From: Emiliania huxleyi CCMP1516
Lineage: Eukaryota
Assembly (NCBI RefSeq): GCF_000372725.1
Contig: NW_005201493.1
Location: forward strand, 342,475-406,474
Direction: 5' to 3'
DNA length: 64,000 bases
Part shown: positions 5,630-59,638 of the stretch, piece after piece
Layout: each line of letters begins with the position of its first letter
Numbering within the stretch: the stretch's first letter is position 1
Translations under genes and position numbers: made by a program
Notes under the pieces: generated by a model
The model's input: only the letters and a program-made list of their open reading frames with translations
Database searches by the model: none
What the model was told of the DNA's origin: nothing

Positions 5630-8600
5630 TCACGCCTCTTCAGCGCAGCTCTCGATGTCGGCAAGGTTGCTCGCCTGGCTCGCCCGGCGGCGCCGGCCGT
5701 AGACGGCGAGCCCAGCCACGGCGGCGAGCGCCAGCGGAGCTGCGACGGCGGCGCGCGCGTTGCTGCTCCAGGGGGCGGGCGCGGATTCGGCGAGGCGGCG
5801 ACGGCCGCTCCCGCCGAGGCAGTCCTGGGTGCAGTATTGAGCGGGGCAGAAGGAGGGCGTCCAGTTGCAGTTGCGGTCACACCAAGCGTCGGTATAGCCG
5901 GAATGAAATCCGGTCGACACGCACTGCCCCCCGCCGGTGCCCGCCGGTGGCGGCGATGGCGGCGGTGGGGGCGGCGAAGGCGGCGGAGGAGGTGAAGGCG
6001 GCGGCGGCGATGGCGGCGGGGGCGGCGACGGCGGCGGAAGAGGTGAAGGCGGCGGCGGCGATGGCGGCGGGGGCGGCGATGGCGGCGGTGGGGGCGGCGA
6101 AGGCGGCGGAGGAGGTGAAGGCGGCGGCGGCGATGGCGGCGGGGGCGGCGACGGCGACGGGGAAGGCGCACCTCCGCCACCTCCACCGCCGCCGCCTCCA
6201 CCGCTCCCGCCACCGCACCGGCAGCAAGCGGTGCCGATGATGCTGTGCGCGCAGTAGCCGCACATCATTTCAAAGGGCCACCCGGGGCAGCTCGACGCGC
6301 CGAGCGCGGCGCAGGAGGTCGAGGACCAACCTTCGGTCAGCGGCATGTCAACGCACTGCCCGCCGCCGTTGCCCGCCGGTGGCGGCGACGGCGGCGGGGG
6401 TGGCGATGGCGGCGGGGGTGGCGACGGCGACGGCGGAGGAGGGTCGGAAATAGCGCCGGGCGGTGGCGAGGGCGGCGGCGGCGGAGGCGAGGGCGGCGGC
6501 GGCGGCGAGGGCGGCGGCGGCGGCGAGGGCGGCGGCGGCGGCGAGGGCGGCGGCGGCGGCGAGGGCGGTGGCGAGGTCGCGCCACCGCCTCCTCCGCCGC
6601 CTCCTCCGCCTCCTCCGCCCCCCGCGGCCCACGCGCTGTTCGCGGCGGAGAGCAGGTCCGCGTCCTTGTCGTCGGATGCCTCCCACCACATCATCCCGGC
6701 GAAGCCCTTCTCCTTTGCGTACGCCGCCTTGATGGCGATCGACTGCTCGTCGTCAAAGGAGACGAACGAGGCCGGGCTGGAGCGGTAGTAGAATGGCACC
6801 TTGCTCGCCGCGTTCCACCCCTTCGTCCAGGCGGGGTTGCCGTCGTAGCTCGCCTTGATGTCGTAGTACGAGACGAGACCCTCCTCGTACGTGCCGCTGA
6901 CGGGGCTGCCCGCGCCGTTCTCGCCCGGCGCCTGTGCGTACTCCTGGTTGGCGCCAAGCCAGCCGCGGCCGTACGCGGGCAGCCCGAGCACAAGCTTGCT
7001 CGGCGCGACGTCCTCGAGCCACAGCTGGACGCCCCAGTCGATGTTGAACTCGGGCGCGCCGCCGGCGGCGGTGCCGTCCGGGTCCTCAAAGAGCGGCGCG
7101 TTGTGAGCGACGAAGGGCAGCCAGGCGCCGTTGTAGTCGTACGACATGAGGTTGATGGCGTCGAGGACCTCGCCAAGCTCGGCGCGCGGCGCGACGCCAG
7201 AGACGCGCGGGTTCATCCCCATGGCGATCGTGAGCTCCTTGTGCTTCGAGGGCGACCGCTCGTCCATCGCCGCGCGCAGCTCGCGCAGCAGCAGCACGTA
7301 GTTGGCCCAGTCGTTGCCGTCCACCTGGTTGTCCGACTCGCCGCAGCAGGCCGGGTACTCCCAGTCGACGTCGATGCCGTCAAAGTCGTGCTCGGTGAGG
7401 AGGTCGACGGCGGAGGCGACGAGCGCGGCGCGCTTGTCGGCGTCGGCGGCGCAGCCGGAGAAGAACTTGCTCTTCGTCCAGCCGCCGAGCGAGAAGGCGA
7501 GGTGCAGGTCGGGGTACTGCTCGTCGCGGAGAATCCGGAGCGCGCCGACGTTCCCCTTGTGCGGCGAGCTCCAGGTCATGCCCACCTCGGGGTAGACGAC
7601 GTCAAAGTCGGCGTACGGGTCCATCGACGCGACGGCGCAGCCGCTCGTCACGTCGAAGAAGGCGTAGTGCACGTGCGTGATCTTGTCGAGGTGGAGGTCG
7701 CTGGGCTTGAAGGGGATGCGGTTGCCGTACTGGTAGATGCCCCAGCTGGAGAAGTATTGCACCACCCGAGGCGGCGTCCCGCCGCCGCCGCCGCCGCCGC
7801 CGCCGTCGCCGCCTGGTGGTGGCTTCGGCGAGGGCGGCGGCGGCGAAGGCGGCGGCGGGGAAGTCGCACCCCCGCCGCCGCCGCCGCCTCCGCCACCCTC
7901 AATGGTCATGCCGGCGGCGAGGAACTCGGAGATGATGAAGTCAAAGTTGGAGAGGCGGCCAGCGTTCTCGGCCGGTGTGGCCCCCCAGTAGCCGTTGTTG
8001 ACCACGCCGCCCGTGCCTGACGCGAAGTCGGCGCCCGCCACGACCGACGCAGCCCGATTGAAGCCCGACTCGACGAACTTTCGGAGGGACTCGTCAAAGG
8101 TCGCCGCCTCGGCCTCCAGCCCGTACCCCTGCACGTTGTTCGCCCAGTAGAAGATCGCGCCGAGCCACTTGGCGTCGTCGTTCTGGCAGATGGCCTCGGG
8201 GTTGGTGCAGAGGTCGATGCCGCTCAGCGAGGGCACCTGGGAGAAGACCTCGCGCTGCAGGAGGCCGTAGTTGTTTGGGCCCGTCGTCTGGATGGCGCCG
8301 CGGCCCCACCAGCAGCACTTCTCGGTGCCCGTGCCTGGCTCGCACTTGAGCGGTCCGGGAGCCCACGACGCCCACGTCTCGGCAGTCATGGTCATCTGCG
8401 GATCGACGTAGCACGCCCACGGCTGGTCGTTGAGGGAGTGGTAGAGCTCGCCGTCGGAGCGCTGCGTGCACGACGCGGTCGGCGAGGAGGGCGGGTAGTC
8501 GTTCTCGTCGCAGGCAGTGAATGGCGCCTCGCCGCCGCTCTCCCACATCGCCTGGGCGAGCAGCCCCGCGATGTTGGAGAGGCCGAGGGCGGTGGACATG

Positions 8601-9175
8601 TCGCCCTCGCCGAGGAAGAGCCGGCGGTCGCTCTCAAGGTCGTTGAAGGAGCGGAGGGCGTCGCAGAAGCCAGACCACCTGCGCAGCGGAGGCGGCGAAT
8701 GGGGCGGCGGAGAGGGAGAAAGGCGAGGAGAGGCGGTGGCGAGTGGTGCGTGGAAGGGGGCGGCGGAGAGGGAGAAGGGCGAGGAGAGGCGGTGGCGAGT
8801 GGTTGGTGGATGGGCGCACTTGTAAATCTCGTTGGAGTCGATCAGGCCGATTTTGCACCCAATCTTGCTCTCGAAAAGGACGGCGTCGATGGCGGCATCC
8901 CCTGTGCAGACGGCCGGCGGCTCCTCGCACTCGGTGACGCAGGTAAGTCGGCCCTCGTCGTTCAGCGAGCAGCACTCGTCTAGGGCGTTGATGTTGGAGC
9001 AGTGAGCTGCAGTGCTGCCGAGCCAGCCGGCGGCCGAGCAGCAGTAGCCGTCGGCGGGCGGAGGCCACGCGGACGAGCACGTCTCCCAGCCGGCGGGCGG
9101 GCACTGCGGCGTGGCGGTGACGGCGGATAGGATCGCGAGGAGGCTGGCGAGCTTGCTGTGGAGGCTGGCGAGCAT
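5630..9175 (-). CDS. Secreted or membrane-anchored chitinase: hevein-like domain, GH19, GH18, Pro-rich linkers, Cys-rich modules; one intron 8679-8819
   Basis: Signal peptide MLASLHSKLASLLAILSAVTA; CCSAAGWLGSTAAHC; GH19-like AQAMWESG and WWGRGAIQTTGPNNYG; GH18 motifs SLGGWT, FDGIDVDWEYP, NLMSYDY, GMMWWE; hydrophobic C-terminal segment. GT-AG intron rejoins EIYK|WSGFC. Confidence 0.93.
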   Translation of the reverse strand: MLASLHSKLASLLAILSAVTATPQCPPAGWETCSSAWPPPADGYCCSAAGWLGSTAAHCSNINALDECCSLNDEGRLTCVTECEEPPAVCTGDAAIDAVLFESKIGCKIGLIDSNEIYKCAHPPTTRHRLSSPFSLSAAPFHAPLATASPRLSPSPPPHSPPPLRRWSGFCDALRSFNDLESDRRLFLGEGDMSTALGLSNIAGLLAQAMWESGGEAPFTACDENDYPPSSPTASCTQRSDGELYHSLNDQPWACYVDPQMTMTAETWASWAPGPLKCEPGTGTEKCCWWGRGAIQTTGPNNYGLLQREVFSQVPSLSGIDLCTNPEAICQNDDAKWLGAIFYWANNVQGYGLEAEAATFDESLRKFVESGFNRAASVVAGADFASGTGGVVNNGYWGATPAENAGRLSNFDFIISEFLAAGMTIEGGGGGGGGGGATSPPPPSPPPPSPKPPPGGDGGGGGGGGGTPPRVVQYFSSWGIYQYGNRIPFKPSDLHLDKITHVHYAFFDVTSGCAVASMDPYADFDVVYPEVGMTWSSPHKGNVGALRILRDEQYPDLHLAFSLGGWTKSKFFSGCAADADKRAALVASAVDLLTEHDFDGIDVDWEYPACCGESDNQVDGNDWANYVLLLRELRAAMDERSPSKHKELTIAMGMNPRVSGVAPRAELGEVLDAINLMSYDYNGAWLPFVAHNAPLFEDPDGTAAGGAPEFNIDWGVQLWLEDVAPSKLVLGLPAYGRGWLGANQEYAQAPGENGAGSPVSGTYEEGLVSYYDIKASYDGNPAWTKGWNAASKVPFYYRSSPASFVSFDDEQSIAIKAAYAKEKGFAGMMWWEASDDKDADLLSAANSAWAAGGGGGGGGGGGGGGATSPPPSPPPPPSPPPPPSPPPPPSPPPPPSPPPPPPSPPPGAISDPPPPSPSPPPPPSPPPPPSPPPAGNGGGQCVDMPLTEGWSSTSCAALGASSCPGWPFEMMCGYCAHSIIGTACCRCGGGSGGGGGGGGGGGAPSPSPSPPPPPSPPPPSPPPPPSPPPPPPSPPPPPSPPPPSPLPPPSPPPPPSPPPPSPPPPPSPPPPPPSPPPAGTGGGQCVSTGFHSGYTDAWCDRNCNWTPSFCPAQYCTQDCLGGSGRRRLAESAPAPWSSNARAAVAAPLALAAVAGLAVYGRRRRASQASNLADIESCAEEA

Positions 9176-9330
9176 CGTGGAGTGGAGGCGTGTTGGTGGT
9201 GATTTAGCTTGCGTTTCTGGCCGCCGTTTGGAATCCACGTAAAGCGAGCCCGCATCCACGTAAAGCGAGCTTCTGCGGGCTCCGCGTTTTGCGGGTATTT
9301 CTTATGTTTTTTACACACACCAGTCGACTT

Positions 9331-9522
<192 letters not shown>

Positions 9523-9524
9523 CA

Positions 9525-9786
9525 AAACAACAACAAGGCCCACCACCGGCGGCCCCACGACGGCGTCCTCGCCGCCTGGGCGGACGCAATGCGCGCCCCG
9601 GCCAACGCGCCGGTCGTGCACGGTGACAAGGAGAAACCGGATCTCACCCGGCAGTACAATGAGGGGTACAAGACTGACCTCGCAGAACCCCATGCAGGGC
9701 CGGGAGGATGCGATGAAGTGAATGAAGTCAAGCTCTGGACACCCCTCCTCAAGACCTCCTCGACGGGCGTTGGCAACGCCTCGAGT
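9525..9786 (+). pseudogene. Degenerate coding fragment, possibly restriction-like endonuclease region of a non-LTR retrotransposon (left part)
   Basis: HHRRPHDGVLAAWADAM...YKTDLAE...DEVNEVKLWTP resembles the RH..V...PD...D/E-x-K layout. Similar text resumes after the insertion at 11441. Confidence 0.35.
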
Positions 9787-11440
9787 GCTGAGGGAGGGTG
9801 TAGAGGATGTAGAGTGTAGAGCGCTGTAGAGCTGTGGAGCTCTACATCCGCCGCGTGACGAGGCGCGTGCGTTGTAGAGCGGTGTAGAGGCGCTCTACAA
9901 CGTGAAATCTCTACAACAAACTCTACATCTGCATCAGCGGCGACGAGGCACGGTCGCTCTCCGACATGAGGCGCGTTGCACTTGCCAGTGCTGCCCTGGC
10001 CTTCTGTCTGCCCGCCCAATGGGTGGCAGGTGCCTCTGCTGCTGTGGCATGCCTCACGGCTGCGACTGGCCGGCGCCTCGGCGCGTCAGCTCGGCTTCGC
10101 ACGCCGTGCCGACGTCGAGCTCGTCGAGCCACAGGAGCGGGAGCTCGGCGCCAAAGTCGTCCGTGTAGAAGGTCAGCGCGGGCGAGCACGGGTCCGCCTC
10201 GCTATCGACCGACTCACTCTCGACCGGCTCGCTCCTCTCGGGCTCGCTCCTCGCGGGCTCCGCTGCCGCCTTTTTCGCCGGTGGCTCGGCCGCTGACGGC
10301 GATGACGTCCTGACGGTTCTCTTGCGTTTGTGCAGCCGCTGGCGGCGGTTCTGAAACCACACCTGCGCCATCGAATCGGAGGTTCAGACGCTGTGCGTGG
10401 AGCGGGCGGTCCGCTCGCAGCTCGCGCCTGCACTTGGCGCGGGTTCAGGTTGCACTCCTCCGCGAGACGTCGAGTGAGGAACGAATCGGGCGTGGTCTTG
10501 AGATCGAACGTGGCTTCCAGGATGGCGCGCTGCTCCGGCTTAAGTGACCTGGTGTAGTGAGGAGGGCGGTGGCATAAGTGATCGACGGTGACGAAGGCGG
10601 TGGCGTCGAGGGCGGAGGTGGAGTGGGTGGTGGCGGAGAGATTGGTGGCGATGAGGCAGTGGCGCAGAGGCGGCGACCTTGTCGATGGCCGCATCGGTTC
10701 TCCGGCTGATGATCAGGCCGTTCGGGACAAGGGAGCCGACTAGGAAGCCGACAGGAGTAAAGGGCACCACGGCTTGCCTTTTGAAACTTCGGAGTTAGCC
10801 GCCGATATTGCAACAGCCGCGTCCAAGCCCCGCAAGGAGAAAAAAGAAATATTCGAGCAACAACTTACGCCTGCGTGTCAGTGATAGTCAGGGCCGTCCA
10901 TCAGAGCTCTAGTAAGCTCGGAGACACCCCATTAGTGCGACTCGACCTCTTTGAGTCACTGCCTTCCCGGCGGGTTGGGAGAGAGATTTTTAGAAGCCAA
11001 CAAGAAATGTGTCACAGAAAGTGGTTTGGGCTCGGCAGCTTGTCGACTACCGGCCGGAGCCGGAGTCGGAACCGTAGCCGAGATGGTCGTCGAGGGTGTC
11101 GAATATGTTCTTGCGGGTTGGCTGTAGGAGCAGGCGGACATCGCTTCCAGGGAGGGGGGCGTGCTTCTGCTCACGCCCCCCCCCCCCGGGGAGGGGAGTT
11201 CCCCCGTTTTGAAGGCCTTTTCAACAAAATTTTCAGCAAAAGGGGGTTTTACTTCGGTTTACAACGCGGGGGCATTGTCACGGGGCGGAGTGAAAGCTTT
11301 AAGGTTTTACAGGGGTTTAAAACGCACGCGCCTTGTCCCGCAGGGGATATAGAGCTTTGCAGCTTTAAAGCGCTCCAGAGCGGTTTATTTACAGCTTTTA
11401 AAGGGCTTTACCCTTTACATCCTTTACCCCCTCCCTCAGC
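9787..11440. mobile_element. Non-autonomous TIR element, 1654 bp, 6-bp TSD TCGAGT, containing a homeobox gene
   Basis: Left end GCTGAGGGAGGGTGTAGAGGATGTAGAG..., right end ...CTTTACATCCTTTACCCCCTCCCTCAGC; inverted similarity extends over ~100 bp. tcgagt at 9781-9786 and 11441-11446. Confidence 0.78.
10054..10694 (-). CDS. Homeodomain transcription factor (non-TALE, Q50); GC-AG intron 10363-10427
   Basis: Spliced product HYTRSLKPEQRAILEATFDLKTTPDSFLTRRLAEECNLNPRQVQ|VWFQNRRQRLHKRKR, followed by an acidic tail. Confidence 0.88.
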
Positions 11441-11985
11441 TCGAGTGGAGGGTCCCCCCACTGTTTGGTACCACCCCCGGCCCATTTAAAGTCAGGGGGG
11501 GCCCCCCCCCCCCCCAGCAGCAGCGCTCTGCTGCTGGGGGGGTCGGGACCCCCCCCCCCCTAGCAGCAGGGATGACTTTAGATGTGCAGGGGGGGTACCG
11601 AGCAATGTGCGGCCGCTCGTGGCGGCACGCCCGCCTCCGTTGGCCACTCCTACGCCTTCGGCAGCACCGAGGAGAAGGCCCGCCGCGCCTGAACACATGG
11701 GCTGCAAGGCGCGCGGGCAGCCCGGCCAACCCTTCTCCCACAAGACCGGCCACGGCTACGTCAAGGCGCATCGCGGTTTCTACCACGACGCGATCTTTGT
11801 CAAGCGCAACAACTTTAACCTGCGGCTCCACGAGACGTTCGGCGGCGGCTTCTCGCCCACCGCCGTTCTCAAGGTAGCTGCGCCGCCTCGCGCGCAAGGT
11901 CGCGCGCGGCAGCGTCGACCGCACGGCCTACTCGCCCAAGTACTCGCTCTCTTTTATGTCCCACCATGGTCCATGCAGAGCGCAT
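11441..11985 (+). pseudogene. Degenerate retroelement-like coding fragment (right part)
   Basis: GGTPASVGHSYAFGSTEEKAR / GCKARGQ...GYVKAHRGFYHDAIFVKRNNFNLRLHETFGGGFSP, with frameshifts. 11450-11600 is homopolymer-rich and looks low quality. Confidence 0.35.
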
Positions 11986-12135
11986 CTCTCTCTCTGTTGT
12001 GCGAGGCGTGAACCGCGCCATTCGCTCTCACCTGGCAACCCTGTCTGCACGTCTCGCGCGCGCGTGAACAGGGCTCCAGGCCCCAAATGATGTGTGAGTG
12101 TTAGAGTTGTTTGGTATTGCTACCCCCCCCCACCA

Positions 12136-12139
12136 CACA

Positions 12140-12195
<56 letters not shown>

Positions 12196-12196
12196 C
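12136..12196. repeat. (GCAC)n microsatellite
   Basis: Directly visible. Confidence 0.95.
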
Positions 12197-12357
12197 ATGC
12201 ATACGCAGAGCACGAGCACTTGGAGCACTTGGAGCGCAGTCATTACCGCAGAATTCTCTCTCTCTCCAATGCTCCAATGGGGATGCACTGACGGTCAAAA
12301 CAAACTCTCTCTCTCTCTGACGGTCGGCCGTCAGAAAACACGCCTCCGTGGCTGGGG

Positions 12358-18412: not shown

Positions 18413-18613
18413 AGAGATGCCTTTCGGGGCCCAGAGATAAAACTTCTGATGCCATGCGTGACCTAGTAGTGTCCCCAGCTATGGGCGTGTCCACGTTGGA
18501 GCCAGGTGTGGTGTGGACGCGAGAATAGCTCCGCCGTTCATGGAGGCAACCGATGCGAGTCGACTGGTGTGTGTCGTCGTGGTTTCGTATCAGGAATACT
18601 CACTCACACACCA
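18413..18613 (+). repeat. ~200-bp dispersed repeat C, copy 1
   Basis: Near-identical reverse-complement copy at 22558-22760; ends in actcactcac. Confidence 0.92.
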
Positions 18614-19249
18614 GCGTTGCACACCCACTATCCGGTCAACTCGTGATCTATGAGCGTAAGGCCGGCAAGGCGCGTGGAACTATTGAGTCAAAATACCTTT
18701 TGGGGTCTATCGAGGTCGCGCGCGTGTGTGTGTGTGTGTGTATCCGTGGCCGCACCTCACGACGTATGAACGCAAACTTTGAGCTAATACACGTGAAGGT
18801 ACCTGGCCTGATCATGAGAACGCGAGGCAAGTTCTTTGGATACCACCGGATGAATACGATCGAAGATCGTCGCTCTATCGATTTGGATGTCTACAAGGTG
18901 AAGGCAGGCCTGCTCATCAACTTGTCGAATGGAGCCCAGGGCCCGCAGAGTCCAAATTCTACAAGACAAAGCTGGGCGATATTCTCCTTCGGTACAACGA
19001 TGGGGGTTTCACTGGCTTCGACGACTTGCTGTTTACTCGCTCTGAGCGGGTCGAGAGGGAGGAGTCAGAATTCGTGGCAGAGCAGATGAGGGAGGGATGC
19101 CCTGGTGTGCCCTAGTGTGTTCCCTTACACCCCTGCCCGGGAGCAGTAGCGCGGTGCGCGTCCCGAGGGCGTAGGGGCTCAAAAAACAATTATGTTTTCA
19201 GCCACTTAGAGCACACAGTGACTGCGGCGGCTGCGACATTGCCATACAG

Positions 19250-19415
19250 CATACTCAGCTCGGTCGAGGTGTTCAACGGCACTTCGTGGAACGCCGGGCC
19301 GGCCCTCACCACTGCCCGCGAAAGCTTCGGGCTCGCGTCGCACAACGGCCTCCTGTACGCCGTGGGGGGGAGGGACAGCAGCTACACCACAATCAGCTCG
19401 GTCGAGGTGTTGCAA
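19250..19415 (+). pseudogene. Isolated single Kelch repeat fragment
   Basis: LSSVEVFNGTSWNAGPALTTARESFGLASHNGLLYAVGGRDSSYTTISSVEV. Confidence 0.7.
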
Positions 19416-19510
19416 GCAAAAAACCGCGTGCCACGCTGTGAAACTCCACCTGCCGCCCCATGGTGAGCTGCCTGCCCAAAAGCAGAGCCCGCCACAGAGC
19501 TTCATGTTCG

Positions 19511-20281
19511 ATGATGCTCGCCTACCTCGCCTGCGTCCCGGCCTTCACCCTGCCGGACGGCCGGGTCGGCCACGTCCTCCGCAGCGAGAGCGCCGTCTCC
19601 GACCTGATCCGCGACCGCGTCGCCGAGGTTGCACGCGTTGCCATCGCCGAAAAGGGCTGCTTCTCCCTCTCCATTGGCTCCGGCACCACCGTCGAGCCGC
19701 TCGCGAGCCTAGCGGGCGCGCTCGACTGGTCGTGCGTCCACCTCTTCTTTGGGAACGAGAGGACAGAGGGCGAGGCTGCGGGCAAGTGCTGGGCCGGCGC
19801 CGAGGAGCTGATTGCGACGTGCGGCGTGGGCCACGTCCACAGGGTGCCGGCCGGACCGGCGGCCGACGCGGCGGAGGCGTACAGCCGAACGCTGCTCGAT
19901 TCGCCTGCTGTCGGCACCTGCGAGGGCACGGGGCTGCCATCGCTGGACTGCGTGCTGCTCGGGAGCGGCGCGGACGGCCACTGCGCCTCGCTCTACCCCG
20001 GCTCGGCGCAGGTTGTCGTCTCGCCCGGGTGCGATCGCGCCTGCCTCGAGGCGGAGGGCAAGGGCGGCGTGACCCTGAGCATCGACGCCATCAGCTCCGC
20101 CCGCACCGTGCTTCTCTCGGCAGCCAAGCCGGAGCAGGCGGCAATGGTACGCAAATGCTTGGGCTGGTCCAACGCGGAGCGGAACACGGGCATGCCCGCT
20201 GGGATGGTCACCTGCGCATACGGCGCGCAGGTCGAGTGGCTACTGACTGATGCGAGCGCGGTCGAGCTACCTGCCCTGTGA
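19511..20281 (+). CDS. pgl: 6-phosphogluconolactonase-like protein (glucosamine-6-P isomerase fold)
   Basis: AIAEKGCFSLSIGSGTT, DWSCVHLFFGNER, LDCVLLGSGADGHCASLYPG, WLLTDASA. Intronless. Confidence 0.85.
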   Translation: MMLAYLACVPAFTLPDGRVGHVLRSESAVSDLIRDRVAEVARVAIAEKGCFSLSIGSGTTVEPLASLAGALDWSCVHLFFGNERTEGEAAGKCWAGAEELIATCGVGHVHRVPAGPAADAAEAYSRTLLDSPAVGTCEGTGLPSLDCVLLGSGADGHCASLYPGSAQVVVSPGCDRACLEAEGKGGVTLSIDAISSARTVLLSAAKPEQAAMVRKCLGWSNAERNTGMPAGMVTCAYGAQVEWLLTDASAVELPAL

Positions 20282-20696
20282 ACCCGTGTGGTAGGAGCGC
20301 ATATCGTGAGTGCTCCACAAAATACCGTCCGTACAAGCAATAAATAAATAAATAAAACGGACACGTACAAGCACTTCACAAGCGCGTGTCCACCCCCCAT
20401 TTTCGCTTTGTGTTTTCTCGCCGCCGTGTGTGAGGTGTGTGCCGTCCACAAGAATCACAAGACACGTAATCGGTACAAGTGCTCCAAAGTGCTCCAAGGT
20501 ACGCTTATGGTACACACAGTAAGGCATATGACAGACCCCATGCCCAGGTGCAGCACCGTAACTATCTCTCGATCGGACCGCTCGGGCCCTCGCGGCGATC
20601 GATGCGCTGCCGTGGCGCGCTGTACATGGGCGTGGGGGGGGGTCCGCTTGACAATGGCCCGCTTGCGCCCGGCACGACGCCTGGAGCGTGGCCATC

Positions 20697-21884
20697 TCAA
20701 CGCGAGCAAGAGGAATCCGCTGTACCCAGGGGCTTCTTCTTGTACCAATCGCCAATCTGGCCCTCGAACTCAAAGAAGAAGGGATAGAGCGATCCGATGA
20801 TCACGCCACTGAACACGAACCACATGACGAGCATGACCACACGTGTCCAGCCTTCCCGTTGGAATTTAATGAAGTAGCACGCGTAGACCGCGGTGAGCAC
20901 AAACCCGATAGCTGGGATGAAGGAGATCTGCCACCAGTCAACGTGGAAGAGTAGCATCACGATGATGGCCACCTGAAACCCGCCCATGACGAATCCTGCT
21001 TGGACCGGCTTCCGCGACGCGAGATCACTCGCTGCTTTGGTGAGTACGATCTCATCAAAGGCCGTCTGGTTTCGGAGAACAGAGTACTGCAGGACCTTCA
21101 GCGCATTCTTGTCCATGTTCATCAGGTAGCCCGCGACGGAGCCGAGCACGAGAAGTTTGCTGTACGAAGGCAGATGGTCAACATCGACCGTTGCGGTCCA
21201 AGCTGCCGTGCAAGAGGTGACATAAATCAGCATCGGGTAGACCAGAGCAAGGTTGAACTCGACGAAGCAGCCCCAAAATACGAGCAGCGACCGACGCGGA
21301 TGCCAGGCTCCAGGCTGCCCGCTGCCGCGCAGGGCACCGATAGAATGCAACAGCAAGCGCTGATATGCAACCTCCTCGAAGCCATCAAGCTCGATCAAAG
21401 TGAGGACGAGTGCGAGCGGGAAGAGCACGAGAGAGCCGATGGCAGCTGCACTCTCCGATGCCCACGAGATGCTGGTCCACCTAAAGTTGAAGCTGTCAGC
21501 CAGAGGATCGTGGCAAATCGGGGCCACCGTCTGGTATGTCGTCACTTTGTCCAGGAAGGAAGAGAACACGGAGGCAAACATAATCAACGCCTGCAGGAGG
21601 ACCAGAAACACGGAGAAGAGCAGTGGGAGGTCAATCTGCCCCGTTGAGAGGCTGTGTACCATTGCCCATGTGAAGAGGCTCTTGACCTTGACGCTTTCGA
21701 GGTTGGTGATGTCGACTGGGTCCTCGCCACCAGTGCAAGAGGCTTTGGGGAGCACTCCGTATTTCGGAAGCTCGCCCGACCATCTGAACTTGACCTCTGC
21801 CACCTGAGCATCGGTGAAGAGAAACAAGTGCTTCAAAAATCGCATACGAAGGGCGTCGGATGCGCTCAGCGGCACAGGCGGCAC
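20697..21884 (-). CDS. Multi-pass membrane protein of unknown function
   Basis: Long ORF of lower GC with about 6-7 hydrophobic helices; first ATG near 21844. Confidence 0.6.
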   Translation of the reverse strand: MPPVPLSASDALRMRFLKHLFLFTDAQVAEVKFRWSGELPKYGVLPKASCTGGEDPVDITNLESVKVKSLFTWAMVHSLSTGQIDLPLLFSVFLVLLQALIMFASVFSSFLDKVTTYQTVAPICHDPLADSFNFRWTSISWASESAAAIGSLVLFPLALVLTLIELDGFEEVAYQRLLLHSIGALRGSGQPGAWHPRRSLLVFWGCFVEFNLALVYPMLIYVTSCTAAWTATVDVDHLPSYSKLLVLGSVAGYLMNMDKNALKVLQYSVLRNQTAFDEIVLTKAASDLASRKPVQAGFVMGGFQVAIIVMLLFHVDWWQISFIPAIGFVLTAVYACYFIKFQREGWTRVVMLVMWFVFSGVIIGSLYPFFFEFEGQIGDWYKKKPLGTADSSCSR

Positions 21885-21911
21885 GTTTGGCGCCGAATTT
21901 GTTCGTAAAAG

Positions 21912-22236
21912 TTTTATCAGGAATTAAGAGAACGACGCGACAGAGGAGGAAGTGACAGTGCCGTTCTCCCATCCCTCCCTTGGGTTGTGTGTTTTCTTTC
22001 TTTCTTTCTTTAGGGAGAGAACGACGAGAGTGGGACGGCCGCGAGGTGGCATGAAGGTTGCAGCGAGAAGCGGCGAGAGACTGCGAAAAGAGATACGAAG
22101 AAGCAGACTCCCCAGGGTGGGCGACGGCTAGCGCATCACACTCCTCTCCTTAAAATCCCTGTGCGGTGACGGCGTGCCGTTCTCCCATCCCTCCCTTGGG
22201 TTGTCTGTTTTCTTTCTTTCTTTTTATCAGGAATTA
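21912..22236 (+). mobile_element. SINE-like dimeric insertion (repeat B) with 15-bp TSD and (TTTC)n tails
   Basis: ttttatcaggaatta at 21912-21926 and 22222-22236. Two subunits each begin agagaacgacg and end gtgccgttctcccatccctcccttgggttgt.tgttttctttctttc. Confidence 0.75.
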
Positions 22237-22557
22237 CTCCAATGTCGTCCACGACCCTGGAAATACTCCCTCCTTTGCGTTTTTTTTCACTCGAGACCGA
22301 CAAGCTCGTCTTGATTTGCCAACAACAAACCTAAAACAAGCTCGAGGAAGCGGTCGATGCTGCACTCGACCGAGAGTTACGACTACGACAACGCCCGAGC
22401 ACGCCCCCCCGGGCTTTTGGCGGCGCCGGCGGCGACGACGCCTTCGACGTGCTCTACGACGGGGGCTCGGGGTACGGGTGGGATTCCTCTTCGGGGGGCG
22501 GCGCCTTCTTCTAGGCGCCCTTGACCCAACATAGAGGGCGCTGTGTGAGCCTGCTTT

Positions 22558-22760
22558 TGGTGTGAGTGAGTGAGTATTCTTGATACGAAACCACGACGAC
22601 ACACACCAGTCGACTCGCATCGGTTGCCTCCATTAACGGCGGAGCTATTCTCGCGCCCACACCACACCTGGCTCCAACGTGGACACGCCCATAGCTGGGG
22701 ACACTACTAGGTCATGCATGGCTTCAGAAGTTTTATCTCTGGGCCCCGAAAGGCATCTCT
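22558..22760 (-). repeat. ~200-bp dispersed repeat C, copy 2 (inverted)
   Basis: Reverse complement of 18413-18613. Confidence 0.92.
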
Positions 22761-42415: not shown

Positions 42416-45400
42416 TTATAATTTGGAAGGGTCGAGGCTGTACGTGCAGACGCACTCCATGCAAAAGAGGCGCTCCGGCGGCCGCGCGAGCACGCGCGCG
42501 AACCGCTCGCTCGGCGTCTCAGCGCCGTACCGCCCATAGTCGGCAGGGACGGCGCCCGTGGGCGGCGGCGGCTGCGCGGGCGGCGTCACGCCACGCAGCA
42601 AGTTGATCGCGGACAAAGACAGCGACGCCTCGCACGCACAGAGCCCCGGCGGCGGCGCGGGAGCCGCCGCCGCCGCCGCGGAAGCCGCCGCCGCCGCCGC
42701 GGAAGCCGCCGCCGCCGCCGCGCGACCGGCCTCGTCGGCCGCACCCTCGTCAGCCGCGCCCTTGTCAGCCGCGCCCTCGACGGCCGCGCCCTCGACGGCC
42801 GCAAGGATCTGCTCCGCGATCGCGCGGACGACCGGCACGCACACCGCGTTGCCAAGCTGCGTGTACAGCTTGCCGCCCCGCAGGACAAAGCTGTCTGGGA
42901 AGCCTACCGCACCACCCACGGGACTGAACCCACACCGGATTCGGCACTCTGGAGGTATGGTAGGACGCCCTGCAGCCGCGCGCACTCGCGCTCCGTGTAG
43001 AAGCGAGGCCTGCCCGAGATGACCCAAGATTACCCGAGAGTACCCGAGATCACCCGAGATCACCCGAGATGACCCGAGATGACCCGAGATGACCCGAGAT
43101 GACCCGAGATGACCCGAGATGACCCGAGATGACCCGAGAGGACTTTGTGTAGAAGCGAGGCCTGCCCGCCCGATCCCACGGGTCCGCGTCGCCCGCGCCG
43201 CCGCTCGCCCGCCGCGCCTCCTCCCCGCCCCNNNNNNNNNNNNNNNNNNNNNNNNNNNNNNNNNNNNNNNNNNNNNNNNNNNNNNNNNNNNNNNNNNNNN
43301 NNNNNNNNNNNNNNNNNNNNNNNNNNNNNNNCTCCAGAGTCTCGAATCCAGTGTGGGTTCAGCTCCTTGGGTGGTGCGGTAGCAGAGAAGGGAGGTGCGG
43401 GGCCTACGCGGCGAAGGCACTAGCCTCGGGGGCAGGAAGACGGTGCTGTGCCGTGTCTAGAGGATATATATAGTGTCTAGAGGACCGCGTGAATGCGAGG
43501 GGGCACGGATGCAGTTGAGTGCGCCTCCCCTCGAGAGCCGTGGGTTGGGAAGACAAGAGAGCACGTCTTCCGCTTCTAGGGCGCGAGGTATGGTGGAGAT
43601 GCGGGGAGATATGGGGAGATCTTCCGCGTCCAGGGCGGCGAGATACGGGGAGATCTGTGGAGATACGGGGAGAGAGGGGGGAGATCTTCCGCTTCTAGGA
43701 GGTACGAGCCGCGCAGCGTGCGCGCGGCGCCGCCGAGCTGGGCGAGCCGCCACTGCGGGTTGGTGCGCCACTCAAGCGACGATCGGACCTGGGCCGCCGC
43801 GAGATTGCTCGAGATTGCTATCTCGCGCGCGAGATTGCCCGAGATGAGGCGTCCGCTCTCGGAGAGGGCGGCCGAGATGCAGAGAGAGAGAGGGGGAGGG
43901 GGAAGAGAGCGAGGTGTGTGCGTGCGTGTGAGGAGAGAGGTGATCGAGAGAGGCGCGAGTGGCCGTGGGAGGCGAGAGAGGGGCTGTGGTGGCGAGATCA
44001 GCCGAGATGCATGAGTTGGCCGTGGGAGGCGAGAGAGGGGCTGTGGTGGCGAGATCAGCCGAGATGCATGAGTTGGCCGTGGGAGGCGAGAGAGGGGCTG
44101 TGGTGGCGAGATCAGCCGAGATGCAAGAGTTGGCCGTGGGAGGCGAGAGAGGGGCTGTGGTGGCGAGATCAGCCGAGATGCATGAGTTGGCCGTGGGAGG
44201 CGAGAGAGGGGCTGTGGTGGCGAGATCAGCCGAGATGCACGAGTTGGCCGTGGGAGGCGAGAGAGGGGCTGTGGTGGCGAGATCAGCCGAGATGCATGAG
44301 TTGGCTGTGGGAGGCGAGAGAGGGGCTGTGGTGGCGAGATCAGCCGAGATGCAAGAGAGACTGAGAGGGCCTGCCGCCACCGCAACACCGCTCAGCTCGT
44401 GTAGGAAGGAAGGAAGGAAGGAAGGAAGGAATGAATGAGAACGAATGAAAACTAAAGTACGCGGACCTGTCGCCACTGCGTCTCGCTCAGCTCGTACCGC
44501 GACCGCTCCTCGTCCGCGAGCGGCTCGAGCAGCTCGCCCAGGGTTCGGTACTGTGGAGGTATGGTACCAGGCGGGGTGCCATGGTACCCTACCCCNNNNN
44601 NNNNNNNNNNNNNNNNNNNNNNNNNNNNNNNNNNNNNNNNNNNNNNNNNNNNNNNNNNNNNNNNNNNNNNNNNNNNNNNNNNNNNNNNNNNNNNNGTGTA
44701 GAAGGGAGGCCTGCCCGCCCGATCCCAGGGGTCCGTGTCGCCCGCGCCGCCGTTCGCCCGCGGCGCCTCTTCCCGGCCCCGGCTTCGGCTTCGGCCGCCC
44801 GGTCCGCCCTCGCCCTCTTGGCCCAGCCGGTGGCCGCACCCCTCTTCTTCTTTTGGTTCGCCCGCTGTGGGGGGGGCCGCTTCCGCCGCCCCTTCCGCCG
44901 CCTCCCCTTCGGCCTCCCTTTCCGCCTCCCTTTCGGCCCCCCCTTCCGCCCCCCCTTCCGCCCCCCCCTCCGCCCCCCCCTCCGCCCCCCCCTCCGCCCC
45001 CCCCTCCGCCACCCTCGCCGCCCCCCCCTCCGCCCCCCCCTCCGCCACCCTCGCCGGCGGCACAAACTCGGAGAAGCGGCTGTACGACTTTCGGTACGAG
45101 CCTACGTGTACCGCACCTCCAGAGTCTCGAATCCAGTGTGGGTTCAGCTCCTTGGGTGGTGCGGTAGCAGAGAAGGGAGGTGCGGGGCCTACGCGGCGAA
45201 GGCACTAGCCTCGGGGGCAGGAAGACGGTGCTGTGCCGTGTCTAGAGGATATATATAGTGTCTAGAGGACCGCGTGAATGCGAGGGGGCACGGATGCAGT
45301 TGAGTGCGCCTCCCCTCGAGAGCCGTGGGTTGGGAAGACAAGAGAGCACGTCTTCCGCTTCTAGGGCGCGAGGTATGGTGGAGATGCGGGGAGATATGGG

Positions 45401-48095
45401 GAGATCTTCCGCGTCCAGGGCGGCGAGATACGGGGAGATCTGTGGAGATACGGGGAGAGAGGGGGGAGATCTTCCGCTTCTAGGAGGTACGAGCCGCGCA
45501 GCGTGCGCGCGGCGCCGCCGAGCTGGGCGAGCCGCCACTGCGGGTTGGTGCGCCACTCAAGCGACGATCGGACCTGGGCCGCCGCGAGATTGCTCGAGAT
45601 TGCTATCTCGCGCGCGAGATTGCCCGAGATGAGGCGTCCGCTCTCGGAGAGGGCGGCCGAGATGCAGAGAGAGAGAGGGGGAGGGGGAAGAGAGCGAGGT
45701 GTGTGCGTGCGTGTGAGGAGAGAGGTGATCGAGAGAGGCGCGAGTGGCCGTGGGAGGCGAGAGAGGGGCTGTGGTGGCGAGATCAGCCGAGATGCATGAG
45801 TTGGCCGTGGGAGGCGAGAGAGGGGCTGTGGTGGCGAGATCAGCCGAGATGCATGAGTTGGCCGTGGGAGGCGAGAGAGGGGCTGTGGTGGCGAGATCAG
45901 CCGAGATGCATGAGTTGGCCGTGGGAGGCGAGAGAGGGGCTGTGGTGGCGAGATCAGCCGAGATGCATGAGTTGGCTGTGGGAGGCGAGAGAGGGGCTGT
46001 GGTGGCGAGATCAGCCGAGATGCATGAGTTGGCCGTGGGAGGCGAGAGAGGGGCTGTGGTGGCGAGATCAGCCGAGATGCATGAGTTGGCCGTGGGAGGC
46101 GAGAGAGGGGCTGTGGTGGCGAGATCAGCCGAGATGCATGAGTTGGCCGTGGGAGGCGAGAGAGGGGCTGTGGTGGCGAGATCAGCCGAGATGCATGAGT
46201 TGGCTGTGGGAGGCGAGAGAGGGGCTGTGGTGGCGAGATCAGCCGAGATGCATGAGTTGGCCGTGGGAGGCGAGAGAGGGGCTGTGGTGGCGAGATCAGC
46301 CGAGATGCATGAGTTGGCTGTGGGAGGCGAGAGAGGGGCTGTGGTGGCGAGATCAGCCGAGATGCATGAGTTGGCCGTGGGAGGCGAGAGAGGGGCTGTG
46401 GTGGCGAGATCAGCCGAGATGCATGAGTTGGCTGTGGGAGGCGAGAGAGGGGCTGTGGTGGCGAGATCAGCCGAGATGCAAGAGAGACTGAGAGGGCCTG
46501 CCGCCACCGCAACACCGCTCAGCTCGTGTAGGAAGGAAGGAAGGAAGGAAGGAAGGAATGAATGAGAACGAATGAAAACTAAAGTACGCGGACCTGTCGC
46601 CACTGCGTCTCGCTCAGCTCGTACCGCGACCGCTCCTCGTCCGCGAGCGGCTCGAGCAGCTCGCCCAGGGTTCGGTACTGTGGAGGTATGGTACCAGGCG
46701 GGGTGCCATGGTACCCTACCCCCACAGTACCCGAACCCAAAGCTCGGTGCGCCGCGCCGCGCGCCGCGGGCAGCGACGGCCACCGAAACGCGGCGGCGGC
46801 GGCGGCGTCGCGGAAGGCGGCGAGGTAGAGGCGCTCGCGGTGCTGCGGCACGAGCGCGGCGGCGTTGGCGAGCTGAAGGCGGCAGTGGTACCTAGAAAAA
46901 GAAAAAAACGTGGCGCCGGCCCTAGAAAAGGAACGCGTGTTTTTCTTTTTCAGGCGGCAGTGATACCCGGCGCGGGTGAGCGCGTGGACGATGATGTGCA
47001 GTGCGTGGCCGTTGTCGACGCGGAGAAGGTTCGGCACATTCTCAAGCAGCAGCGCCGCCGGCCTGCATCCACAGACACGGGCTCCGCCCCTCAGCCTCCC
47101 TCCTCTCTCCTCCCACCGGCCTCCAACAAGACAATCTCTCTCCGGACTCCCTCGAAGGAGCTCGAGGAGGGCCTTGTGTGTGTGCGGAGGTCCGGAGTCC
47201 TCGTCTAGGATTGACCCCCCTGCCTGACGGTGTGGTGTTGGTGCCGCTCTGACTAGTCGATCTCCACGGCGAGCTACAGCGAGCTCCAATGAGAGTCCCG
47301 AGAAGGTGCGCCGTGAAGGTTCCGTACGTGTCTGAAGGTTCACTGTGCTGTCGTGCGATTTCGGCCCCCCGAGGCGGTGCTCTTTGTGTGAAGCTTCCGT
47401 GAAGGTGTCCCGAGAAGGTTCCGTGAAAGTTCGCCTAGCGCCGCCGGCCTGCAGCGCGACGCGACGCGCACAATCTCGAAGAAGAGGTCGCCGCGCGCAT
47501 CGCCCAGCCCGCGCTGCTCGCCGCTCCGCGAGAAGGACTGGCACGGGAAGCCCGCCGTCAGCAAGTCGTGCGCAGGCAGGTCCTCGTCCGGGACCTCCGT
47601 GATGTCGCCCAGAGGCGCGTCGCCAAAGTTCCGCTCGTACGTCGCGGCGGCGCACGGGTCGATCTCGGACGCAAAGACACAGCGGCCGCCGAGGCCGTCG
47701 AGCGCCAGTCGGAAGCCTCCCACGCCGGCGAAGAGCTCGGCGTAGCGGAAGCGCGGCGGCGGAGCCGGCGATGCGGCGGCGGCGGCCGCCGCCGCTGGCG
47801 AAGGCGCGGCGGCGGCTGAGACGTGCCGGTGACCAGTGGCCCAGCGCACCGCGCCGTCGCGAAGGAGGGCGGCAAGCGGAGCCGGGACCAACGACTCGGC
47901 ATCCGAGCCAAACGCGTCGAGCGCCCGTGCGCCCTCCGGCGCGACGGCAACGGCGAGGTGCTCGCAGTCGTACTCGTGCACCTTTGTCCGCTTCTTGCGC
48001 CACTGCCGTTCGTCCAGCGCCTTGATCACGGTCTGGAGGTGGCGCTTTGGCGCGACGACAGCACCAACAGCGACACCGGAGGCTGCTCCAGGCAT
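42416..48095 (-). CDS. C5-cytosine DNA methyltransferase, multi-exon, interrupted by two gaps and a duplicated contig
   Basis: Motif I ELFAGVGGF, II ASEID, III GDITE, IV LTAGFPCQSFS, VI LLENVPNL, VIII PQHRERLY, IX ECARLQG..FP, X LYTQLGNAVCVPVV. Confidence 0.92.
43232..44695. other. Gap-flanked contig duplicating 45117-46722 (probable assembly redundancy or second allele)
   Basis: N100 at both ends; sequence is essentially identical apart from minisatellite copy number (about 7 versus 13). Confidence 0.85.
45744..46482. repeat. Intronic 57-bp minisatellite, about 13 copies
   Basis: Unit gagttggccgtgggaggcgagagaggggctgtggtggcgagatcagccgagatgcat. Confidence 0.97.
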
Positions 48096-49109
48096 GGAGC
48101 AAGGCGACAGGGCGAGGGCCGTAGCCCAGAAACAAGAAAAACGGCTGCGTCCAGAAACAAGAAAAACGACTTGCGTTAAGGGGAAACCTGGTACGCGGGG
48201 CTAACCCTCGGAGAGTATTCTTTAGCTCCGAGTAGAGGGGGCGTTCCGCAGCTAGGGGGGACCCACAGCGCGAGGGAAAAATTCCGCCGCTGGGGGAAAC
48301 CCGGAGCGCAGAACTAACCCTCGGAGACCCGTGTTATGGCCCTGCGACCGCGCACCCCCGGGGCTAGGGCTCTCTTGCCCGCAACCCGATCCCGATCATC
48401 CGGCCCGCTGGGTGCGCTTCTTAGCTCCCCGGCCCTGGATGTGAGGCTGATAACTGCACTCCAAGTGCTCCAAGTGCGTACCCAGAAACAAGAAAAATGA
48501 CGCCCATCCTTGCGTCGAAATCTGGCGCTTTGCGCGTAGTCGCGCCTTAGCAGTCCAAAGACGCGCGCGTCTTTGCCTTGTCGTGGCCGTCCATCTCGAT
48601 GCAGAACGACGCGCCGCGTCTTTGCCTTGTCGCGGCCGTCTATCTCGATGCAAAACACACACGCGGTGCGCATTCAGAGAGAGAGAGATTTTTAGCAATA
48701 CCTCACAGGTGGGGGACCGGATCCTGCTGACCAAGCTCCTCTTGTAGCTCGATCGGTCACACCGCCATCGCCGTCGGGGAGAGGGGGGACGACACTGCTT
48801 CGGCAGCGTGCACCTCGATCCTGTACCGTGTTTGTTATGACCCCCCCCCGATGAACACACCAGTGAGGGAGGGCGAGACGATCGAGGGGTCCCGTACCAT
48901 GCGGAATCGACCCTATCCAGTGCTCAAGTGCTCAAGGTGGGGGACAGAACGCCGGCCGCACCCGGCGTGCTAGCAATCTCCGCGATAATTCGGACCAGCC
49001 TTGATGAGAGATACTTCGTGCGTCCGCGTCGGGCTGGCGGACACATATGCCCTCCTCCCCCCAGCCTCGGCGGCGGGCCCGCACGGCGGGGGAAAATGCG
49101 ACCGCCGCC

Positions 49110-53857: not shown

Positions 53858-54529
53858 TACTCTCGTGAGGCTGTGAAAGCACGCCCAACCTAGCGGATTT
53901 GGGCTCTCAGGGGATTGATGCCCCGAATGGGGCGGCTCAAGGCGATTTGAGATGCGGGCGCCGCCGCCTCCCGGCGGCCAGCCTGACGCCCTCGGGCGCC
54001 GCGCCTCGGGATCTGGGTCTAGTCCGAGGTGGCACGCTCGGCGAATCGGGCGCGGAGGCGACACGCGCGCCCGCTCGGCGCCGAGGTGACCTGGCGCTCG
54101 ACGCCCTCGTTCAAGCGTCATATCGGGCACATCACTGCCTCACGCGCTCCCGCTGCCGCTGTTAGGCTACCTGAGCTAGAGCTCATGATAGTACGACCTC
54201 GCCGACAAGCTACACGCGCTGCTCCGCGCGCAGGTGCCGCGGCACGCCCTGCCACCGCCCGGCGTCGAGCGGCGTCGCTCGCGCTCTCCACACACACACA
54301 GCCGCGCGCGCGCTCTGTGTACTCCCGACGCACACACCCGCGCCCGCGCACACCACTCTCGCGCCCGCTACGCTTGTCCGCGAGCGGCGAGCGCTGCGCG
54401 CCGCGACGCGTCGGCAGCCGCGGCGCCGTGTGACGCAGCGCAGCCCGGCCGCGCACCACAGGTGCAGGTGCTCTCCCTCGTCGATCGCTCGCCGCGGCGG
54501 CAGCGACGCGCCCCGCGGCGGCCGCGCGG
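53858..54529 (+). repeat. Left terminal inverted repeat
   Basis: 53904-54529 is a near-perfect reverse complement of 59639-60264, plus an imperfect outer ~25-bp match. Confidence 0.95.
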
Positions 54530-55307
54530 CAGCCGCGCTTACGAGAGCCGCGCACCGAGCGCGGCGCGGCGCGATGCGTCCCGCAGGCAGCGGCAGTACA
54601 GTATTGCCTGGGCGCGCGCCGCCCGGCTCGCCGCGCCGGCCGACCCCTCGCGCCGGCGCCGCGTTTTGGCCTCGACGTGTGGTGCATGCGAACGCCGACC
54701 CTAGCTGCGCGCTGCGTTCGCACTTTCTCTACCTTGACGCGAGCCACAACCCTGCCGGACTAGACCGACGGCCCGCCGGTGCCGATGCTCTCAGCGTTGT
54801 GAACGAACGGCGGCCACGCTGCTCATCGCCCCCGTCTCGGCCGGCGGCGGGTCGATGGATGCCTACTCGGGCTTGAACGATGGTGATCCACGTGTCGCGG
54901 AGGATAGATCTGCGCTCGGCGGTGGAGGCGGCGTGGCAGGCAACGGTTCGCCGCCACCGCCGCGCGGGAGGTGCTCGCGCCGCCCGCGAAGGCACTGGCC
55001 ACCATTAGGTTCGCCGGCCGTGGCTTCGCCGCATGGCCGGGAGAGTGAGTCAGATCACATCTGTGTGCCGTGTCGAGAGAGGGGAGAGATGATTCAGAAG
55101 ACGGCTGTGTGCAGAGCTCCTACGGCTTTACGCAGTAGCCACGGTGCGCGCTTACGGTACGAGTAAAGGCACATGTACGGCTCTAGAGAGCGGATGTGAT
55201 GCAATCTCAATAATACATTGTTTTAAAGTTCGCTGTCTTCGTCACAGTCCATGGGCTCATGGTCATGCACTGCTGAAAACATGCTGCTGAGCCTACGGCT
55301 AGTTGCG

Positions 55308-56010: not shown

Positions 56011-56039
56011 CGGCACGCCAGGCCGAGGGTCTACGACGG

Positions 56040-57810: not shown

Positions 57811-58011
57811 GCAGTACGCTGTAGAGACACTAGGGGAAGCACGGCGCACTCACCCACGCCCCCACGCCCCCGCACTGCCCCCAGACGCACACCCATAAGT
57901 GCACCCGTCACTCGGAGGAGAGGAGACGGCATGCGAGCGACACGCCCCTGCAACGCGAGTCGCTCACATGCCGCCCAGCTGCCGTATCAGAGCCCTCCCG
58001 CCCCATCGCAG

Positions 58012-59145: not shown

Positions 59146-59176
<31 letters not shown>

Positions 59177-59574: not shown

Positions 59575-59638
59575 CTGCCGGACGCGCCGCGCCGCCCCGC
59601 GCAGGCGCGGCCGCCGCGCGCGCCGGCCGGCGCGCTAT

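What the first reader, a model, noticed from the sequence alone, without database searches (positions are those of the whole stretch)
9787..11440. Homeobox gene carried inside a small TIR element with a 6-bp target duplication
Seen: inverted termini GCTGAGGGAGGG.../...CCCTCCCTCAGC with tgtagag/ctctaca subrepeats, an exact TCGAGT duplication on both sides, and flanks that rejoin as one coding-like fragment (..GVGNAS|SGGSP..). Inside there is no transposase, only a homeodomain gene with an intron and intact WFQNRR. Inference: a Pack-type non-autonomous DNA transposon has captured and moved a transcription factor at the DNA level. A 6-bp TSD with these termini does not fit the common hAT/Mutator/Mariner/CACTA signatures that I know.
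Basis: partly seen in the sequence, partly recalled or inferred. Interest (0 to 1): 0.8.

Follow-up and report, generated by a model that had tools for sequence, protein, structure and literature searches.

The report
Algal transposon holding truncated homeobox copy
In a coccolithophore alga, a small member of an abundant DNA-transposon family holds a cut-off copy of a normal, expressed homeobox gene, likely copied in during DNA repair; this kind of gene capture is already known from plants and animals.

Summary

Its ends are 9788 and 11439: 18-42 contigs per run from other insertion sites leave the sequence at 9788. The target duplication is therefore 8 bp (CTCGAGTG), the usual hAT/Zisupton length, not 6 bp.

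The cargo (10097-10870) is not a whole transcription factor. It holds the promoter, both introns and 134 of 186 codons of an Emiliania huxleyi homeobox gene, joined bluntly to transposon DNA that adds a 14-residue tail. RNA contigs from three studies are spliced and run into the native 3' end, not into the element.

The flanks are a high-copy repeat. They rejoin only after a second 171-bp element (11448-11618) is also removed.

No second cargo-bearing copy was seen, and no listed contig bridges the 10096/10097 or right junction, so 'moved' is not shown. About 11100-11560 looks like poor-quality sequence.

Best reading: a single-copy Pack-TIR made by template-switching gap repair. One other haplotype shares the upstream gene-transposon junction, so the whole gene may be transposon-borne.

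Verdict: new member of a known kind, modest interest.

The parts
9780..9787 (+). Left 8-bp target-site duplication CTCGAGTG
   Evidence: Identical to 11440-11447; element end fixed at 9788 by loose ends of 18-42 contigs per run in three runs
9788..9930 (+). Left TIR and subterminal TGTAGAG/CTCTACA repeats of a very abundant family
   Evidence: summed contig depth 4e5-2e6 in the first bin against 42-2281 on the core of the cargo (not a copy number)
9931..10096 (+). Family-internal segment 'B'. Other members continue with different DNA after 10096; here it supplies the cargo's new 14-residue tail and stop (10054-10056, minus strand)
   Evidence: Loose ends behind 10096 in X1, X3 and X8 (10097 in X6) and in RNA runs X10, X11
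10097..10870 (-). Captured 5' part of an E. huxleyi homeobox gene: about 175 bp upstream, ATG at 10694, exons 10694-10678, 10548-10428, 10362-10097; breaks in codon 135 of 186
   Evidence: 1-7 residue differences from six full-length database proteins over 134 aa; native 3' continuation on DNA and RNA contigs; PF00046
10549..10677 (-). Intron 1, GT-AG, 129 nt
   Evidence: RNA joint in X9 and X10 (2 of 3 RNA runs); ends
10363..10427 (-). Intron 2, GC-AG, 65 nt, inside the recognition helix
   Evidence: 65-nt skip in 3 of 3 RNA runs; the 71-nt GT-AG alternative is not what the RNA shows
10871..10978 (+). Family-internal segment 'A'. Other members are preceded by other DNA and followed by the subterminal motif. 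The gene-to-A junction also lies on a different haplotype in X8
   Evidence: Loose ends at 10871 and 10978; X8 record 10596-10898 with 17 other letters and 15 gap letters
10979..11249 (+). Further repeated segment 'C' (about 10981-11108) and poorly resolved DNA
   Evidence: Contigs at about 90% identity, one of them flanked by other DNA on both sides
11250..11439 (-). Right subterminal region and TIR; probably carries base-calling errors
   Evidence: 20 of 25 arm mismatches merge base runs against 10.7 expected (pooled with the neighbouring element)
11440..11447 (+). Right 8-bp target-site duplication
11448..11618 (.). Second, separate 171-bp inverted-repeat element (GAG...CTC ends, 3-bp GTG duplication) abutting the right TSD
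   Evidence: 22 of 30 terminal matches and a 3-bp duplication; skipped together with the main element in other copies of the flank repeat
9541..9779 (+). Left part of the high-copy target repeat (decayed coding frame, possibly a retroelement remnant; family not identified)
   Evidence: Depth 1.6e4-4.7e5 and joints to 11619/11621; no Pfam hit above cut-off
11622..12100 (+). Right part of the same target repeat
   Evidence: reading frame continues across the doubly empty site; ESM Atlas gave leads under 0.9 only

Best explanation
A 1,652-bp non-autonomous TIR transposon with an 8-bp target duplication holds the promoter, two introns and first 134 codons of the host homeobox gene between its own internal segments, likely copied in after insertion by template-switching repair of a break, and is likely a single, probably silent, truncated duplicate. 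Shown: the ends, the TSD, the abundance of the family, the source of the cargo, the blunt 10096/10097 junction in the window, and the gene-to-segment-A junction on another haplotype. Inferred step 1: an ordinary family member inserted into a high-copy repeat and made the TSD. Inferred step 2: after a break inside it, the right end paired with a copy of segment A that already lies about 175 bp upstream of the start codon at the native locus. Inferred step 3: synthesis ran through the promoter into exon 3, and the strand was rejoined without homology to segment B. The frame would encode 148 aa: an intact homeodomain, the acidic linker and a transposon-derived tail in place of the last 52 residues.
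For: The cargo sits at allele-level distance from complete genes (1 difference from P0009 and from P0022 in 134 aa), so the copy is recent. Both introns are kept, so it was copied from DNA. Both breakpoints are internal to the family (10096, 10871), as for gap-filled Pack-TIRs (PMC8277862, passages seen). In 4 of 4 DNA runs and 3 of 3 RNA runs the listed homeobox contig passes 10097 into non-element sequence; in the RNA runs it matches the native C-terminal coding sequence. X8 has the gene-to-A junction on a haplotype that differs from the window at sites where X1 and X3 agree with the window (10786, 10803, 10804, 10812). That junction is therefore older than this copy, and only one new junction is needed. 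The flanks are collinear halves of one repeat with an exact 8-bp duplication.
Against: No listed contig bridges 10096/10097 or the right TIR-TSD junction (tables are truncated and contigs drop rare variants). The junction pattern found only a chance 22-mer in metagenome contigs. The native locus was never seen beyond about 225 nt downstream of the breakpoint or 28 nt into segment A, so its layout is inferred. X8 shows three variants over 10225/10243-10354 and two annotated full-length copies exist, which would also fit several gene-carrying elements. Microhomology at 10096/10097 is 0-1 bp.
Confidence: 0.55

Rival explanations
1. The complete, expressed homeobox gene is itself cargo of a larger element of this family, which moves it by transposition and supplies its upstream DNA. 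The window copy is an internal deletion derivative that inserted here already loaded.
For: The gene joins family-internal segment A, not a TIR end, on at least two haplotypes. Several sequence variants occur in one run. No close orthologue was found outside the E. huxleyi-like cluster: 5 hits among 348 candidates, and the next relatives among 1.84 billion representatives are at most 53% identical among the 150 listed.
Against: The X11 RNA contig runs about 1,030 nt past 10097 without a listed match to segment B 10030-10096. The cargo core is 10^3-10^4-fold shallower than the family ends. Variants may be alleles or mixed strains. None of 43 homeodomain proteins scanned shows a transposase catalytic domain among the families listed.
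Confidence: 0.23
2. Assembly chimera: the homeobox contig was placed between the two halves of an ordinary element.
For: 11250-11335 has no cover in 4 of 4 DNA runs and 11336-11421 in 3 of 4. The region shows run-merging errors typical of a poor trace. Neither the B-homeobox junction nor the right junction was seen in independent data.
Against: The 10096/10097 junction is blunt, gap-free and lies in clean sequence, which overlap-based mis-joins do not produce (inference). The exact 8-mer (chance about 2e-5) and the collinear flanks tie both ends to one site. The gene-to-A junction exists in X8.
Confidence: 0.12
3. Composite capture: a second family member inserted in or near the native gene's 3' part, a deletion fused its left end to exon 3, and the outer ends then transposed together to this site (a Pack-CACTA-like route, recalled; local same-orientation insertions are reported in PMC8903248, passage seen).
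For: It also needs only one new junction, and it explains the TSD as made by the loaded element.
Against: It needs an extra insertion and a deletion. No allele truncated at 10097 was seen in 7 runs. P0025 is cut a few codons earlier with an unrelated tail, origin unknown.
Confidence: 0.1

Closest known systems
Single-copy Pack-TIRs of animals (Tan et al. 2021, PMC8277862; passages seen)
   Same: Host DNA inside a TIR element with TSD; breakpoints internal to the element; little of the element lost; mostly single-copy and attributed to transposition-independent gap filling.
   Different: Here the host is a haptophyte alga. One junction (gene to segment A) appears to pre-exist at the donor. Distance to the donor is unknown: it is not in this 64-kb window.
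Pack-TYPE elements of plants, including Pack-hAT (Gisby and Catoni 2022, PMC8903248; passages seen; authors recalled)
   Same: Non-autonomous, TIR plus TSD, carrying host coding DNA; hAT members have 8-nt TSDs.
   Different: Plant Pack-TYPEs were called as multi-copy clusters, whereas no second loaded copy is shown here. The superfamily of this element is not proven.
hAT and Zisupton/Dileera superfamilies (PMC12730594; passages seen)
   Same: 8-bp TSD; short TIR with subterminal repeats (recalled for hAT).
   Different: The terminus is CTGAG, not the recalled hAT consensus (C/T)A(A/G)NG. No transposase of the family was found. hAT elements are numerous in the haptophyte Tisochrysis lutea (129 putative families, PMC5963040, passages seen).
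E. huxleyi homeobox protein EMIHUDRAFT_446945 / XP_005790184.1 (P0015) and its 70-member cluster (40 read, 15 listed)
   Same: First 134 residues, with 1-7 differences from the six members compared.
   Different: The window copy lacks the last 52 residues and ends in a transposon-derived tail.

Membership tests
Pack-TIR / Pack-TYPE element | Paired terminal inverted repeats of a repeated TE family | tested here: met
   high-copy left end with diverse flanks
Pack-TIR / Pack-TYPE element | Target-site duplication | tested here: met
   Exact 8 bp
Pack-TIR / Pack-TYPE element | No transposase inside | tested here: met
   No transposase Pfam hit in 7 frames overlapping the element; only 878 bp remain beside the cargo. 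A short remnant in the error-rich part could be missed.
Pack-TIR / Pack-TYPE element | Internal DNA copied from a host gene whose parent lies elsewhere | tested here: met
   Complete gene in databases; native 3' continuation in 7 of 7 runs laid
Multi-copy (mobilised) Pack element | Same cargo-bearing element at two or more sites | tested here: inconclusive
   One copy in the window; junction not seen in listed contigs or metagenome contigs; no whole genome held
hAT superfamily | 8-bp TSD | tested here: met
   One site only; no second full-length element was available
hAT superfamily | Short TIR with subterminal repeats (recalled) | tested here: met
   11 bp perfect, 27 bp near-perfect; ten exact 7-mer repeats at the left end
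hAT superfamily | Terminal consensus (C/T)A(A/G)NG (recalled, from no call) | tested here: not met
   Both ends read CTGAG
hAT superfamily | Autonomous partner with hAT transposase and the same ends | not testable with these tools
   No eukaryotic genome searchable; scans of viral and prokaryotic collections gave only chance matches
Zisupton/Dileera (KDZ) | 8-bp TSD (PMC12730594) | tested here: met
Zisupton/Dileera (KDZ) | KDZ transposase in an autonomous partner | not testable with these tools
   No partner found
   Family contigs diverge before 9788
Homeodomain transcription factor (PF00046) | Homeodomain above Pfam cut-off with WFQNRR helix | tested here: met
   P0009 scores 56 bits against cut-off 22.9 and differs from the window copy at 1 residue, outside the domain
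Homeodomain transcription factor (PF00046) | The element's copy is complete and expressed | tested here: not met
   52 C-terminal residues missing; 3 of 3 RNA contigs carry the native end. Expression in the source strain is untested.

The most novel reading that the evidence does not exclude
This E. huxleyi homeobox gene is a passenger. The complete, spliced gene seen in ocean metatranscriptomes sits inside larger members of an abundant CTGAG-ended, 8-bp-TSD transposon family, has transposon DNA about 100 bp upstream of its transcript ends, and is spread and reshuffled by transposition. The window copy would be a deletion derivative that swaps the factor's C-terminus for a transposon tail.
Probability: 0.2. 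Interest if true: 0.65.

Novelty: new member of a known kind. Interest (0 to 1): 0.36.

Why it matters
It extends Pack-type gene capture to a haptophyte. My searches found no such report: 2 papers; 26 papers, 15 listed; 3 papers. The library lacks most subscription journals, so this is not proof of absence. Such capture could feed the strain-variable gene content recalled for E. huxleyi, and a truncated homeodomain could compete with the native factor if it were expressed, which is not shown. If the whole gene proved transposon-borne, it would be a mobile, expressed transcription factor in a globally important alga.

Tried and rejected
6-bp TSD: rejected. GT-AG 71-nt intron 2: rejected, RNA skips 65 nt. 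The 'SGGSP' rejoin: rejected, it enters a second element. Two solo ends around a resident gene: rejected, because the gene is truncated and the flanks are collinear halves of one repeat.

Whole genome: not held. Metagenome scan for the junction: one hit, L001, only a 22-nt match. TIR, subrepeat and segment-A patterns in viral contigs gave 0, 4, 7 and 0 loci, and in prokaryote genomes 3; no fetched locus matched beyond 22 nt. Homeobox in viral contigs: 0 of 51 candidates confirmed. Rfam over 9500-12200: 0. ESM Atlas for the flank frame: leads under 0.9 only; for P0009 no answer. Earlier findings: nothing in 3 look-ups.

Pfam covered 184 of 191 stop-to-stop frames of 150 aa or more (six frames containing N and one repeat frame left out) and found no transposase in the window. 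The U-box N-terminus of P0014 is not encoded in the window. Lack of contig cover at 11250-11421 is not taken as proof of absence. Supplements of the cited papers were not opened; TIR sequences there could bear on the superfamily.

Full report
Observation. The inverted ends, the subrepeats, the flank duplication and the homeodomain are in the sequence. The arms match for 11 bp exactly, for 27 bp with 3 mismatches, and again over 68 nt at 78%. The combination of an 11-bp inverted pair and an exact 8-bp flank repeat arose in 0 of 5 block-shuffles. The 10 other hits in the real window are palindromes inside two long inverted repeats.

The TSD is 8 bp. At this one site two readings fit: 6 bp with ends 9787/11440, or 8 bp (CTCGAGTG) with ends 9788/11439. 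Contigs of four public DNA runs were laid on 9530-12100. In X1, X3 and X8, 30, 18 and 42 contigs leave the window immediately before 9788 with unrelated flanks (agreement 0.35-0.41); no such row is among those listed for X6. The G at 9787 therefore belongs to the target. Eight base pairs is the usual hAT length and also that of Zisupton/Dileera, and hAT families with 5, 6 and 7 bp are described (PMC12730594, passages). The terminus CTGAG does not fit the hAT end consensus as I recall it, and no autonomous partner could be searched, so the superfamily stays open, with hAT-like the likeliest.

The family. Summed contig depth is 4e5-2e6 in the first bin, against 42, 262, 96 and about 1,000-2,300 on the cargo core. 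This is not a copy number, but it separates a very abundant family from a low-copy insert. Family members continue past 10096 with other DNA, and reach 10871 from other DNA. The cargo is thus 10097-10870, between two internal breakpoints.

The cargo. Protein searches returned a 186-aa protein whose 70-member cluster includes two annotated E. huxleyi homeobox proteins (40 members read, 15 listed). The organism is therefore E. huxleyi or a very close relative. RNA contigs skip 65 nt in 3 of 3 runs from three studies and 129 nt in 2 of 3. These give a GC-AG intron at 10363-10427 and a GT-AG intron at 10549-10677. GC donors are the majority in this species (PMC4028052, passages). With these introns the window frame is 148 aa. 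Its first 134 residues differ from six full-length database proteins at 1-7 positions, and the last 52 native residues are replaced by 14 from segment B. All three RNA contigs run past 10097 into the native C-terminal coding sequence, and the listed homeobox contigs of all four DNA runs also leave the window there. What is expressed in these samples is the complete gene; nothing shows expression of the element's copy. The junction is blunt, with 0-1 bp shared. Beyond the E. huxleyi-like records, relatives among the 150 listed are generic homeodomains at 53% identity or less. None of 43 proteins scanned shows a transposase catalytic domain among the families listed.

The other junction is older. 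An X8 contig runs from 10596 through the promoter into segment A, to 10898. That is 28 nt past the junction, short of the tool's 31-letter rule for bridging. It differs from the window at positions where X1 and X3 agree with the window. The gene-to-A junction therefore probably exists on at least two haplotypes and belongs to the donor. RNA contigs end at about 10765-10767, roughly 100 bp short of segment A.

The flanks. They belong to a high-copy repeat with a decayed reading frame; its family is not identified. Other copies join 9784/9785 to 11619/11621 in X1, X3 and X8 (sides of 20-30 letters). They skip not only this element but also a second one at 11448-11618 with GAG...CTC ends and a 3-bp duplication. 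These joins are from paralogous copies, not a proven orthologous empty site.

Sequence quality. In the right TIR and the near arm of the second element, 20 of 25 mismatches to the opposite arms merge base runs, against 10.7 expected (P about 8e-5 by simulation; 7 of 25 in the reverse comparison). The stretch 11250-11335 has no cover in any of the four runs. I read about 11100-11560 as a poor trace. No listed contig bridges the right junction or 10096/10097, and the metagenome scan for the latter gave a chance 22-mer. The exact 8-mer (chance about 2e-5), the collinear flanks and the blunt junction in clean sequence argue against a mis-join, but an artefact is not excluded (0.12).

Mechanism. 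Best (0.55): an ordinary family member inserted here first. A later break was repaired by pairing its right part with the copy of segment A at the donor gene, copying through the promoter into exon 3, and rejoining to segment B without homology. The insertion-first order and the repair steps are inferred. This is the gap-filling route described for most single-copy animal Pack-TIRs (PMC8277862, passages). Rival (0.23): the complete gene rides in a larger element and this copy is a deletion derivative. The internal position of the shared junction, three variants in X8 and the lack of close orthologues allow this; the absence of segment B for about 1 kb downstream in the X11 transcript weighs against it. 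A composite capture followed by transposition (0.10) remains possible.

Comparison and verdict. The element works like, and meets the tested criteria of, a Pack-TIR/Pack-TYPE element (PMC8277862; PMC8903248, passages). Mobilisation with cargo is not shown. I found no report of such capture in haptophytes (search listings only, apart from passages of PMC5963040); this library is incomplete. It is a new member of a known kind, with a truncated and probably silent cargo and an ordinary TSD length. Interest 0.36, rising to about 0.65 if the whole gene proves transposon-borne.

Noticed in passing
window 53858-60311: Inverted arms of about 740 nt (94-99% alike) with an exact 9-bp flank duplication (7 bp if the ends move out by one) enclose about 5 kb with two long frames (55793-57895, 57412-59571) that have no Pfam hit. 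Mutator-like or another Pack element.
   Followed up: partly
window 18413-22760: 199-nt inverted arms (97%) enclose a 6-phosphogluconolactonase-type frame at 19442-20278. No clear TSD; one arm ends in a GA repeat. Possible second Pack-like element.
   Followed up: partly
window 11448-11618: Small inverted-repeat element with GAG...CTC ends and a 3-bp GTG duplication that overlaps the main element's right TSD. Order of insertion unknown.
   Followed up: yes
window about 11100-11560: Sequence looks like a poor-quality trace with run-merging substitutions.
   Followed up: yes
window 46582-48333 (minus strand): C5 DNA methyltransferase split over two frames, next to a tandem array with FG-GAP-like repeats at about 43300-46700 that spans the two N gaps and is partly duplicated.
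   Followed up: no
window 10030-10096 (segment B): Present on contigs of RNA runs X10 and X11, continuing 129-195 nt into the family's own middle part. The family may be transcribed, or DNA is present in these libraries.
   Followed up: no
P0025 (ENA contig of 741 nt): Another form of the same homeobox protein that breaks off a few codons before the window's breakpoint and ends in an unrelated tail of about 27 residues. Second rearrangement or assembly chimera.
   Followed up: no
P0014 (EMIHUDRAFT_450965): Annotated copy in which a U-box domain is joined to this homeodomain. The U-box part is not in the window; may be a gene-model artefact.
   Followed up: partly
window 5633-9301 (minus strand): A 1,223-aa open frame with a glycosyl hydrolase 18 domain lies just left of the target repeat.
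   Followed up: no
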